58,686 nt of DNA from Nitrospira sp. (GTDB lineage: Bacteria; UBA10199; SBBF01), in the NCBI GenBank assembly GCA_005240075.1, contig SBBF01000027.1:1-58686 (forward strand). The letters are read 5' to 3'. Positions 11,684-11,841 of this stretch are shown here, in pieces; within the stretch, counting starts at the first letter, position 1; every line of letters begins with the position of its first letter. The notes below the pieces were generated by a model, which saw nothing but the letters and a program-made list of their open reading frames with translations, was not told the DNA's origin and did not search any database. Made by a program: the position numbers and the translations under genes.

Positions 11684-11841
11684 GCATGCCAGATGACGAA
11701 GAATCTGGCTTACAAGGCCAAGCTTGGCTTGGCCGCGTAGCAAAGCCATCGGCTTTGCGAAGTAGAAATAGCCAGTTCTGAGACAGGGAGGCTCCCTTCA
11801 TTGCGAAGTCTGCCTCCGGCAGACAAGCAGGAAGGTATATT
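11684..11841 (+). repeat. leader cassette family L1, copy B (expanded hairpin; ends in SD + ATG of thiolase)
   Basis: Same ends as copy A (CATGCCAGATGACGAAGAATCTGGCT ... AGCCAGTTCTGAGACAGGGAGGCTCCCTTCATTGCGAAG ... GGAAGGTATATT then ATG 11842). A ~60-nt nested-hairpin insertion sits inside the CTGGCT/AGCCAG stem. Confidence 0.75.

What the first reader, a model, noticed from the sequence alone, without database searches (positions are those of the whole stretch)
11684..11841. Leader cassette L1: a repeated 5' element that always delivers the SD and start codon, with compensatory base changes in a hairpin
There are four copies: 10711-10798 (+), 11684-11841 (+), 19671-19766 (+) and 25571-25664 (-).

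Each copy ends in (G)GGAAGGT plus 4-6 nt, immediately before an ATG. The downstream genes are unrelated: livF, thiolase, a GNAT and the 476-aa unknown.

The internal hairpin keeps pairing while its sequence changes:
- CCGGC-TTG-GCCGG at 10739-10751.
- GTGGC-TTT-GCCAC at 19703-19715.
- CTGGC-TTT-GCCGG at 25626-25638 (reverse complement), with a G-U pair.
- CTGGCT ... AGCCAG at 11705-11775, enclosing a ~60-nt nested-hairpin expansion.

The conserved CCCTTCATC can pair with the upstream GATGA(C)GAAG. Through its CCTTC it can instead pair with the GGAAGG Shine-Dalgarno. That is the geometry of an SD-sequestering switch. I do not recognise it as a known riboswitch class. It could equally be a MITE-like element that has been co-opted as a portable RBS.
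Basis: seen in the sequence. Interest (0 to 1): 0.7.

Follow-up and report, generated by a model that had tools for sequence, protein, structure and literature searches.

The report
Portable structured leader repeat carrying an RBS
A roughly 100-base repeated sequence has recently been placed directly in front of unrelated genes (and, in a related organism, in front of tRNA genes); it supplies their ribosome-binding site folded into a conserved hairpin, much like the REP2 repeats of Neisseria and not like a metabolite-sensing riboswitch.

Summary
The window has four co-oriented copies, each ending at a start codon. A covariance model scored at every position finds no fifth copy.

Eleven copies (four here, seven from metagenome contigs) support three helices: P1', P2 and P3.
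- All 231 pair cells form standard pairs.
- Six pairs change on both sides.
- 0 of 500 shuffles reach this; slid controls pair at 35-56%.

P3 encloses the GGAAGG Shine-Dalgarno sequence.

The element is a recent gain. Relatives with 78-94% identical flanking proteins lack it at all four orthologous sites. At the thiolase gene it replaces the native 20-nt leader, including its AGGAGG.

Three metagenome copies abut the mature 5' end of tRNA genes. Two of those, and a tandem orphan array, have lost the Shine-Dalgarno sequence (GGAAGC) but keep the hairpin.

Its P2 "head" also occurs fused to other "tails" that likewise end at start codons.

There is no match in Rfam, phage, plasmid or viral collections, and no transposase nearby.

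Best reading: a REP2-like portable leader and RBS repeat acting as RNA. How it spreads and why it sits exactly at gene starts are unknown. A riboswitch is unlikely.

The parts
11676..11841 (+). L1 copy c2, the focal copy. It forms the whole 5' leader of the thiolase operon, from about the predicted transcription start to the ATG at 11842.
   Evidence: Model R1 scores it 73.8 bits, E 3.5e-16. It replaces the 20-nt native leader CACAAACAGGAGGAAAAATC of the 94%-identical relative L123. It folds with z = -5.7.
11650..11678 (+). Native promoter-like site of the thiolase operon, upstream of c2 and not part of the element: TTGACA, 17 nt, TACTCA preceded by TGT.
   Evidence: TTGACAC-N10-CATTTGTTACT is conserved in relatives L123, L124 and L127, which lack the element. 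Promoter function is inferred, not shown.
11700..11779 (+). P2 of c2. Arms are AGAAUCUGGC (11700-11709) and GCCAGUUCU (11771-11779), enclosing a 61-nt nested-hairpin insert (11710-11770). GA (11698-11699) and GA (11780-11781) flank it.
   Evidence: P2 pairs in 99 of 99 cells, with 3 pairs changed on both sides. The insert motif GCAAAGCCATCGGCTTTGC is unique in the window.
11688..11792 (+). P1' of c2: GCC (11688-11690) pairs with GGC (11790-11792) and closes the P2 domain.
   Evidence: The pair is GCC/GGC in 9 copies and GCU/AGC in c1 and c4. That is a single compensated event, so support is weak.
11795..11835 (+). P3 of c2. The anti-SD arm is CCUUCAUUGC (11795-11804). An extension hairpin GUCUGCC-UCC-GGCAGAC follows. 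The 3' arm is GCAGGAAGG (11827-11835).
   Evidence: dG is -22.7 kcal/mol. The U-A pair replaces the C-G pair of the other 10 copies (pair 127/154).
11830..11844 (+). SD-like GGAAGGU (11830-11836), spacer AUAUU, and the thiolase start codon (11842-11844).
   Evidence: The thiolase is identified by Pfam. The N-terminus MKE matches that of the orthologues.
10710..10798 (+). L1 copy c1, between livG (stop at 10707-10709) and livF (ATG at 10799). P2 is 10734-10755, P3 is 10770-10791, and the SD is 10786-10792.
   Evidence: Model R1 scores it 99.2 bits. In relatives L123 and L124, livG and livF overlap or lie 8 nt apart with no element.
19674..19766 (+). L1 copy c3, between lipB (stop at 19668-19670) and the GNAT gene (ATG at 19767). 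P2 is 19698-19719 and uses AGGA/UCCU. P3 is 19734-19763.
   Evidence: Model R1 scores it 102.9 bits. In relative L124, lipB and the GNAT gene overlap by 17 nt with no element.
25571..25667 (-). L1 copy c4, upstream of the 476-aa orphan gene (ATG at 25570-25568 on the minus strand). P2 is 25643-25622 and P3 is 25607-25578.
   Evidence: Model R1 scores it 92.5 bits. It has a U.G pair in P2 and in P3.
22322..22450 (-). Related family F2. It has the same P2 head (ACAA-U-CUGGC-UCU-GCCAG-UUGU, flanked by GA and GAG) but a different tail. It ends at the ATG of a UPF0150 (HicB-like) gene (22321).
   Evidence: Model R1 scores it 32.7 bits. The F2 profile gives E 4e-42. Pfam identifies the gene.
53006..53137 (+). 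Related family F2, second copy. Its head is ACAG-A-CCGGC-UUU-GCCGG-CUGU. It ends at the ATG of an Nfu/NifU-like gene (53138).
   Evidence: Model R1 scores it 24.6 bits. The F2 profile gives E 1.4e-40. Pfam identifies the gene.

Best explanation
L1 is a lineage-restricted family of non-coding repeats about 95-110 nt long (about 165 nt with nested inserts). It has no terminal inverted repeats.

**Where it sits.** It occupies the last stretch of transcribed DNA before a gene, always in the gene's orientation. It ends 0-3 nt before the start codon or exactly at a tRNA's mature 5' end.

**What it does, in this reading.** It acts as RNA.
- A head domain is formed by P1' closing the P2 hairpin. P2 is 5 + 4 bp with a bulged U, flanked by conserved GA and GA.
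- The head is followed by hairpin P3. Its 5' arm CCUUC-A-UCGC pairs with GCGG-GAAGG, which is the Shine-Dalgarno sequence.
- An A/U-rich tail of about 9 nt follows P3.

**Consequence for the gene.** On arrival the element displaces or replaces the gene's own ribosome-binding region and substitutes its own weaker, hairpin-masked SD. The gene stays translatable, but initiation now depends on opening a hairpin of about -10 kcal/mol.

**Status of each step.**
- Shown: the copies, their placement, the structure and its strand specificity, gain relative to relatives, and loss of the SD where no protein gene follows.
- Inferred: that P3 limits or gates translation; that the shared P2 head is a recognition site for a trans-acting factor (for mobility, or for an RNA-binding regulator); and how the element spreads.

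The closest described analogues are the Neisseria REP2 and Borrelia IR repeats.
For: **Copies and placement.**
- There are four window copies, and no further copy when model R1 is scored at every position.
- Six further independent loci come from metagenome contigs.
- Nine of the ten loci abut a gene start in the gene's orientation. Six abut protein genes. Three abut tRNA genes at exactly +1 (ARAGORN, Rfam).

**Structure.**
- All 231 cells are paired. Six pairs and 16 cells change on both sides. 0 of 500 shuffles reach this. Slid controls pair at 35-56%.
- The outer stem of P2 takes five compensated forms across L1, F2 and a third tail type.
- Sixteen cells are G.U and none is A.C. One U.G pair is invariant. 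So the fold is specific to the gene-sense strand.

**Recent gain.** The element is absent from the following orthologous sites in relatives.

| Site | Relative lacking the element | Identity of flanking protein |
|---|---|---|
| livG-livF, thiolase | L123 | 94% |
| livG-livF, lipB-GNAT, thiolase | L124 | 84% |
| thiolase (a different, unrelated insert at livG-livF) | L127 | 81% |
| sucD-ndk | L139, L134, L136 | 91%, 89%, 78% |

At the thiolase gene the native AGGAGG leader is replaced.

**SD use.**
- GGAAGG or GGGAGGG is present in 6 of 6 protein-linked loci.
- It is present in 1 of 4 loci that are tRNA-linked or orphan.
- Fisher p = 0.03, with the partner base changed to match.

**Other points.**
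- P3 has dG of -9.6 to -12.5 kcal/mol, and -22.7 in c2.
- Short-read unitigs of the source sample end inside L1 copies, as expected for a multi-copy repeat.
- REP2 and the Borrelia IR repeats are described as TIR-less repeats with two stem-loops, an RBS and an ATG, immediately upstream of ORFs (PMC3184786).
Against: - No expression, processing or translation data exist for these uncultured organisms.
- Only 11 copies from two lineages were available, and several share ancestry. The covariation counts therefore overstate the number of independent events.
- The same compensatory pattern would arise if the hairpins served transposition rather than the host, as in REPIN-like elements.
- A hairpin of -10 kcal/mol over the SD of housekeeping genes (ndk, thiolase, livF) should depress translation. 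That is hard to square with tolerance unless something opens it.
- No internal sigma-70-type promoter was found, unlike REP2.
- No mobilising enzyme was found: Pfam scans of about 40 of the window's larger ORFs, including all that flank the copies, and of ten ORFs on three L1-bearing metagenome contigs found none.
- Exact abutment to tRNA +1 is not explained by any RBS function.
- In the GCUUC-type copies a second register of P3 is equally good.
Confidence: 0.55

Rival explanations
1. L1 is primarily a selfish mobile DNA element of the single-strand hairpin type (IS200/IS605-derived or REP/RAYT-like). P2 and P3 are top-strand DNA hairpins read by a transposase encoded elsewhere. The SD and A/U tail are a stealth adaptation that lets it sit at gene starts without killing expression. 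Any effects on RNA are incidental.
For: - Presence/absence polymorphism at four orthologous sites.
- Head-to-tail tandem array in L106, and tail-like remnants on the left flank of L087, L105 and c1.
- Two imperfect hairpins, each with one extrahelical base. They are strand-specific, which top-strand recognition would also produce.
- The left flank ends in (T/A)AT in the metagenome copies.
- The hairpin is kept after SD loss in tRNA-linked and orphan copies.
- The head is combined with different tails.
Against: - No Y1 or other transposase was found among about 40 of the window's larger ORFs, including all that flank the copies, or among ten ORFs on three L1-bearing metagenome contigs.
- P2 and P3 are unlike each other, whereas the ends of IS200/IS605 elements are read by one enzyme.
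- Known elements of this type choose a target on their left flank. That does not predict a right end locked to start codons and to tRNA +1.
- At the thiolase gene 20 nt were replaced, not simply interrupted.
Confidence: 0.2
2. L1 and F2 leaders form a post-transcriptional regulon. An RNA-binding protein recognises the shared P2 head (bulged U, GGC-UUK-GCC top, flanking GA/GA). Through the adjacent tail hairpin it controls translation or stability of all the RNAs that carry it.
For: - The head is conserved in shape, with five compensated outer-stem variants and invariant top, loop and flanking purines, across three tail types.
- Core identity between the two lineages (78%) is as high as within one genome (81%). 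That suggests sustained constraint.
- The hairpins have a single bulged base, as in known protein operators (own knowledge: the MS2 and PP7 coat-protein operators).
Against: - No candidate protein was identified.
- The gene set has no common theme.
- tRNA leaders are removed by RNase P, so regulation there would have to act before processing.
- Recent arrival at housekeeping genes fits a spreading element better than a designed regulon.
Confidence: 0.12
3. L1 is a metabolite- or ion-sensing riboswitch. Ligand binding to the P1/P2 domain frees or masks the SD held in P3.
For: - The SD-masking hairpin is real and covaries.
- In c1, c3 and c4 the alternative fold lies within 0.5-2.5 kcal/mol of the P3 fold.
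- Conserved unpaired purines surround P2.
Against: - The anti-sequestering helix has no covariation, and its central pair is unpaired in 10 of 11 copies.
- That fold is 3.5-19 kcal/mol worse in c2 and in all metagenome copies.
- The element is absent from orthologous leaders of relatives at 78-94% protein identity.
- The downstream genes are unrelated and include three tRNAs.
- There is no Rfam match, even at E up to 10.
Confidence: 0.05
4. L1 is an RNA-processing module. An endonuclease cuts in the A/U tail at the foot of P3. This releases a stable leader RNA and a downstream RNA with a short standard 5' end, so the element insulates the downstream gene or tRNA from upstream sequence.
For: - There is a fixed distance of 9-11 nt from P3 to the tRNA +1 or to the G of the ATG in 8 of 10 loci.
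- It occurs inside operons (livG-livF, lipB-GNAT, sucD-ndk).
- The A/U-rich single-stranded tail after a hairpin resembles RNase E-type sites (own knowledge).
Against: - A cut in the tail would remove the SD from the mRNA, yet the SD is selectively kept in front of protein genes.
- There are no data on RNA ends.
Confidence: 0.08

Closest known systems
Neisseria REP2 repeats (contact-regulated element upstream of pilC1, crgA and others; Parkhill 2000, Morelle 2003, as reviewed in PMC3184786)
   Same: - A 120-150 bp intergenic repeat without terminal inverted repeats.
- Two internal stem-loops predicted at RNA level.
- Carries an RBS and ends at, or contains, the ATG.
- Sits immediately upstream of unrelated ORFs in their orientation.
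- Origin and mode of spread are unknown.
   Different: - REP2 is reported to contain a promoter. None was detected in L1, and c2 lies downstream of a conserved native promoter.
- In L1 the SD lies inside a covarying hairpin.
- L1 also abuts tRNA 5' ends.
- L1 shares a head module with other tail types.
- Sequence homology to REP2 was not tested, because no REP2 sequence was at hand.
- The host is an uncultured groundwater lineage.
Borrelia plasmid IR-A/IR-B sequences (Dunn 1994, as reviewed in PMC3184786)
   Same: - Repeats immediately upstream of genes.
- Contain an RBS and an ATG.
- Have two inverted repeats near the 5' end.
   Different: - They are plasmid-borne, low in copy number and promoter-containing.
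- No link to tRNA genes is reported.
Putative mobile promoters (Matus-Garcia, Nijveen and van Passel 2012; PMC3575422)
   Same: Highly similar non-coding sequence upstream of non-homologous genes within one genome and across taxa. Most have no Rfam match, and their mode of movement is unknown.
   Different: That survey looked at positions -150 to -50 and assumed promoter function. L1 is the -100 to -1 leader, is structured RNA, and shows no promoter consensus.
MITEs and REP/REPIN or IS200/IS605-derived hairpin elements
   Same: - Short, multi-copy and non-coding.
- Hairpin-forming.
- Polymorphic between relatives.
- Form tandem arrays.
- Show compensatory changes among copies.
   Different: - No terminal inverted repeats.
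- No clear target-site duplication.
- No transposase nearby.
- Strict co-orientation with the downstream gene and strict locking to its start, whereas REP elements usually lie after genes.
SD-masking RNA thermometers (ROSE, fourU) and translational riboswitch expression platforms
   Same: A hairpin pairs the SD with a pyrimidine-rich anti-SD and carries a bulge.
   Different: - No match to those families in Rfam.
- No heat-shock or virulence gene set.
- The hairpin is retained where there is no SD and no ORF.

Membership tests
Riboswitch (ligand-sensing cis-regulatory RNA) | The aptamer is conserved at orthologous leaders across related genomes. | tested here: not met
   The element is absent upstream of livF, the thiolase gene, the GNAT gene and ndk in relatives whose flanking proteins are 78-94% identical.
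Riboswitch (ligand-sensing cis-regulatory RNA) | Two mutually exclusive helices (sequestrator and anti-sequestrator), both maintained in evolution. | tested here: not met
   The sequestrator P3 is supported. The proposed anti-sequestrator is 82% paired, which equals the shuffle mean, and has no compensatory change. It is energetically competitive in only 3 of 11 copies.
Riboswitch (ligand-sensing cis-regulatory RNA) | A functionally coherent set of controlled genes. | tested here: not met
   The downstream genes are an ABC ATPase, a thiolase, a GNAT, an orphan gene, ndk and three tRNAs.
Riboswitch (ligand-sensing cis-regulatory RNA) | Match to a described class. | tested here: not met
   Rfam 15 gives no hit at gathering score. 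At E up to 10 there are only chance-level hits.
REP2-like / Borrelia IR-like upstream repeats | The repeat lies immediately upstream of unrelated ORFs and is co-oriented with them. | tested here: met
   4 of 4 window copies and 9 of 10 loci overall.
REP2-like / Borrelia IR-like upstream repeats | It carries an RBS and reaches the ATG. | tested here: met
   GGAAGGU lies 2-6 nt before the ATG. The 3' junction is at the ATG when compared with empty sites.
REP2-like / Borrelia IR-like upstream repeats | Two internal inverted repeats form stem-loops, and there are no terminal inverted repeats. | tested here: met
   P2 and P3 are supported. No shared terminal inverted repeat was found in five copies.
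REP2-like / Borrelia IR-like upstream repeats | It contains its own promoter. | tested here: inconclusive
   No sigma-70-type site was found inside the element at the five L1 loci scanned. c2 lies downstream of a conserved native promoter-like site.
REP2-like / Borrelia IR-like upstream repeats | Sequence homology to the Neisseria or Borrelia repeats. | not tested
Filing here is by kind, not by homology.
MITE | Terminal inverted repeats. | tested here: not met
   Inverted-repeat search of five copies with their flanks: c3 gave only the internal GAUGAAGG/CCUUCAUC helix, and c4 and L107 gave no pair. c1 gave an 8-nt pair whose 3' arm lies in livF coding DNA (a chance match). L096 gave a 15-nt, 73% complementary pair reaching its 5' end; no other copy shares it, so it is not a terminal inverted repeat of the family.
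MITE | Target-site duplication. | tested here: inconclusive
   ATG or TA can be read on both flanks of some copies (c1, c3, c4, L096, L107). The flanks are A/T-rich, and at the thiolase gene 20 nt are replaced. L093 shows duplications of about 50 nt.
MITE | Multi-copy, with presence/absence between relatives. | tested here: met
IS200/IS605-derived or REP/RAYT hairpin elements | A cognate Y1 transposase or RAYT in the genome. | tested here: inconclusive
   None was found among about 40 of the window's larger ORFs, including all that flank the copies, or among ten ORFs on three L1-bearing metagenome contigs. The rest of the genomes could not be searched.
IS200/IS605-derived or REP/RAYT hairpin elements | Subterminal imperfect hairpins on one strand. 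| tested here: met
   P2 and P3 each have one extrahelical base. Their G.U pairs occur only on the sense strand.
RNA thermometer (ROSE, fourU) | An SD-masking hairpin with the family consensus, in front of heat-shock or virulence genes. | tested here: not met
   A masking hairpin is present. There is no Rfam match, and the gene set is unrelated.

The most novel reading that the evidence does not exclude
L1, F2 and their relatives are a modular class of mobile leader elements that are placed at the exact 5' boundary of functional RNAs: the G of the start codon, or +1 of a mature tRNA. This would use a mechanism that reads RNA ends or gene starts. One example is reverse transcription with template switching from a mature tRNA or processed mRNA onto the leader RNA, followed by recombination. 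Another is a start-site-guided nuclease or recombinase. The element would thereby swap out native 5' leaders. No such gene-start-targeting element is known in bacteria.
Probability: 0.1. Interest if true: 0.85.

Novelty: new variant of a known kind. Interest (0 to 1): 0.5.

Why it matters
If the reading is right, genes in this poorly known groundwater lineage can have their translation-initiation region replaced wholesale by a ready-made, structured cassette. This happens even to core metabolic genes, to genes inside operons and to tRNA genes.

- **Rewiring of expression.** That is a route to rapid rewiring of expression, documented so far for only a few repeats such as REP2.
- **Annotation.** Gene callers run ORFs through such elements, as happened for the L124 B12-binding gene. 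The elements also break short-read assemblies.
- **Structure and spread.** This family comes with unusually clean evidence for its fold. It also has an unexplained, base-exact placement in front of tRNAs that points to an unknown mode of spread.

Tried and rejected
**Searches that led nowhere.**
- The single genome-contig scan used too loose a pattern (CTTCATYGCGAN{1,30}GCRGGAAGGT). It returned 84 chance matches and no real copy. As a result, no named genome and no genome-wide census could be obtained.
- Three viral-contig scans found nothing real.
- blastn of c1 against the plasmid and phage collections gave no match.
- Rfam gave nothing at gathering score, and nothing meaningful at E up to 10 on L1 or up to 5 on F2.
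- The 476-aa downstream protein has no homologue, so it gave no orthologous loci.
- The MAG names could not be resolved in the NCBI taxonomy tool.

**Readings considered and rejected.**
- **Internal sigma-70 promoter.** No consensus site lies inside the element. The TATATAAT tail lies 0-3 nt from the tRNA or the ATG, which is too close to serve as a -10 box.
- **T7-like promoter (...ATA|G).** Rejected, because transcription would start inside the ATG.
- **Kink-turn around P2 (GA/GA flanks, C/D-box-like UGAUGA...CUGA).** The tandem G.A pairs are plausible, but no canonical stem lies in the required position. Judged by eye only.
- **Leader peptide.** c1 has a 23-codon uORF ending in a TAA that abuts the livF ATG. 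However, c4 and most metagenome copies lack a start codon, and indels shift the frame.
- **Integron attC site.** There are no RYYYAAC/GTTRRRY cores, and the flanking genes are syntenic core genes.
- **CsrA sites.** The GGA in the linker between P2 and P3 is not conserved.
- **Terminal inverted repeats.** None.
Not supported.
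Full report
**1. The observation**

c2 carries two internal inserts.

A covariance model was built from 11 copies and scored at every position of the window. 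It finds exactly these four copies, at 74-103 bits. The next two matches score 33 and 25 bits and are related elements; everything else scores below 11 bits.

Each copy ends in GGAAGGU, then a spacer, then ATG. The spacer is 6 nt in c1, 5 nt in c2, 6 nt in c4 and 2 nt in c3.

Pfam confirms the downstream genes: an ABC ATPase, a thiolase and a GNAT. The fourth, a 476-aa protein, has no family and no homologue among 5.8 billion proteins.

**2. More copies**

The one genome-collection scan was wasted on too loose a pattern. A stricter pattern run on metagenome contigs gave real copies at six independent loci.

| Locus | What follows the element |
|---|---|
| L087 (= L104) | tRNA-Arg(TCT), first base |
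| L096 | tRNA-Ser(GCU), first base |
| L107 (= L113) | tRNA-Ser(CGA), first base |
| L105 (= L132, L133) | ATG of ndk, 6 nt after GGAAGGU |
| L093 | ATGATG of a mini-ORF |
| L106 | Nothing: three head-to-tail copies next to the terminator of a convergent gene |

The tRNA junctions are confirmed by ARAGORN and Rfam.

So nine of ten loci abut a gene start in the gene's orientation.

**3. Structure**

Three helices on the 11-copy alignment:
- **P1'**: 3 bp, closing the P2 domain.
- **P2**: 5 + 4 bp with a bulged U. It is flanked by conserved GA on the 5' side and GA on the 3' side.
- **P3**: 5 + 4 bp with a bulged A. Its 3' arm is GCGG-GAAGG.

The counts:
- All 231 pair cells form standard pairs.
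- Six pairs (16 cells) change on both sides.
- No shuffle of 500 reaches the observed pairing or covariation score.
- Sliding the partners by 1-3 columns drops pairing to 35-56%.

Read directly from the sequences, the optional P3 extension also covaries. Its two pairs are AC/GU, GU/AC or GC/GC, next to tandem G.A.

Sixteen cells are G.U, one of them an invariant U.G pair, and none is A.C. The fold therefore belongs to the gene-sense strand. That fits RNA, or top-strand single-stranded DNA.

Stability and caveat:
- P3 alone has dG of -9.6 to -12.5 kcal/mol, and -22.7 in c2.
- c2 as a whole folds with z = -5.7.
- In the GCUUC-type copies a second register of P3 is equally good.

**4. The proposed switch**

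The helix GAUGAnGAAG:CUUCAUC is 82% paired. That is the same as its shuffles. It has no compensatory change, and its central pair fails in 10 of 11 copies.

When this helix is forced, the fold is within 0.5-2.5 kcal/mol of the P3 fold in c1, c3 and c4. It is 3.5-19 kcal/mol worse in c2 and in every metagenome copy. A two-state switch is therefore not a conserved property of the family.

**5. Recent gain**

Thiolase homologues are named "Deltaproteobacteria bacterium" MAGs, several from groundwater. Syntenic contigs from relatives lack the element.

*livG-livF, lipB-GNAT and thiolase*
- In L123 (thiolase 94% identical), livG and livF overlap: TTGGGGGAAATTGATGTCTCTT.
- In L123, the thiolase leader is TTGACAC..CATTTGTTACTCAAACTC|CACAAACAGGAGGAAAAATC|ATG.
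- In the window, the same promoter-like sequence (11650-11678) is followed by L1 in place of those 20 nt.
- In L124 (thiolase 84% identical), livG and livF are 8 nt apart, and lipB and the GNAT gene overlap.

*sucD-ndk*
- L139, L134 and L136 carry Ndk that is 91%, 89% and 78% identical.
- They have short native leaders, such as AAAGGATTCAATATG, and no element.

*The two L1-bearing lineages*
- They differ by 25% in methylmalonyl-CoA mutase. That is more than the 18% between the window and L124.
- Yet L1 core identity is 78% between the lineages and 81% within a genome.
- The family is therefore either long maintained under constraint, with turnover of sites, or exchanged between lineages.

Short-read unitigs of the source sample end inside c1, c2 and c3.

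**6. The SD is used only where it is needed**

- All six protein-linked loci have GGAAGG or GGGAGGG.
- Two of the three tRNA-linked loci, and the orphan array, have GGAAGC. The partner base is changed from CCUUC to GCUUC.
- Fisher p = 0.03 on ten loci.
- Most other genes in the window have no good SD, though a few have GGAGG.

**7. Modularity**

The two weaker model hits are a second family, F2:
- 22322-22450 on the minus strand, ending at the ATG of a UPF0150 gene.
- 53006-53137 on the plus strand, ending at the ATG of an Nfu-like gene.

F2 is also present in relative L124, before the B12-binding gene. F2 shares only the P2 head with L1. L093 carries a third tail type on the same head.

Across all heads the outer stem reads AGAA/UUCU, AGGA/UCCU, ACAG/CUGU, ACAA/UUGU or UCCA/UGGA.

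**8. What it is not**

- No Rfam family.
- No viral, plasmid or phage match.
- No terminal inverted repeats.
- No sigma-70 site inside the element.
- No transposase or reverse transcriptase among about 40 of the window's larger ORFs, including all that flank the copies, or among ten ORFs on three L1-bearing metagenome contigs.

**9. Comparison with what is known**

The best-fitting described kind is the Neisseria REP2 repeat and the similar Borrelia IR sequences. These are TIR-less repeats with two stem-loops, an RBS and an ATG, immediately upstream of unrelated ORFs, and their spread is unexplained (PMC3184786). More broadly, L1 resembles the "putative mobile promoters" (PMC3575422).

L1 differs from these in four ways:
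- No promoter was detected in it.
- Its SD sits inside a covarying hairpin.
- It abuts tRNA 5' ends.
- It is one of several head-plus-tail combinations.

Homology to REP2 was not tested.

**10. Verdict**

The riboswitch reading is unlikely. The portable-RBS reading is largely right, although the element is not a classical MITE.

Still unexplained:
- How it spreads.
- Why it lands base-exact at gene starts.
- What the triple duplication of about 50 nt around L1 in L093 means.

Noticed in passing
window 22322-22450 (-) and 53006-53137 (+); L124 15611-15744: A second leader repeat family (F2, about 125 nt). It has the same P2 head as L1 but a different tail: GGGGUUUGGGGCCAUCUGAGGCCC ... GGGCCGAAGGGGCCC. 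It has no SD. Each copy ends at the ATG of an unrelated gene: UPF0150/HicB-like, Nfu-like, or the B12-binding subunit. In L124 the gene caller ran the ORF through the element.
   Followed up: partly
window 3928-4008, 6907-6967, 15796-15858, 17569-17622: A third repeat family: pairs of GGGCGA-N6-8-UCGCCC hairpins (REP-like). They sit between co-directional genes of the TRAP, liv and mutase operons, just upstream of the next start codon. At the slot before the B12-binding gene the window has this repeat, whereas relative L124 has F2.
   Followed up: no
window 18080-18196 and 35196-35311; partial copy near 22495-22520 (-): A repeat of about 115 nt (90-100% identical blocks) lying between convergent gene ends. 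Part of it recurs next to the F2 copy at about 22.5 kb.
   Followed up: no
window 42457-42697 and 45220-45460: A 241-nt direct repeat, 90% identical. On the minus strand it encodes a hydrophobic protein of about 77 aa (MDSLTLFGLFAVTAMVVFYALEK...). This duplicated small gene lies beside the coaE gene and the Fic gene.
   Followed up: partly
L093 5000-5340: The last 50 nt or so of a rhodanese gene occur three times. One L1 element and one P2-head element with a third tail lie between the copies. After L1 the duplicated fragment forms a 16-codon mini-ORF. This may be a trace of the insertion mechanism.
   Followed up: partly
window 11710-11770 and 11805-11826: c2 carries a 61-nt double-hairpin insert in the P2 loop and a 22-nt hairpin in the P3 loop. 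Neither is found elsewhere in the window. These are either nested insertions or expansions.
   Followed up: partly
window 10729-10800: In c1 an ATG at 10729 opens a 23-codon frame through the whole element. Its TAA stop abuts the livF ATG (UAAAUG). This is not conserved in other copies, so it is probably incidental.
   Followed up: partly
L137 and L138 (Logan unitigs of SRR6943130): Short-read unitigs carrying livF and the GNAT gene begin and end inside L1 copies. The repeat therefore fragments assemblies of this organism.
   Followed up: yes
window 11650-11678; L123, L124, L127: A conserved promoter-like sequence, TTGACAC-N10-CATTTGTTACT, lies upstream of the thiolase operon in four related genomes.
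   Followed up: partly
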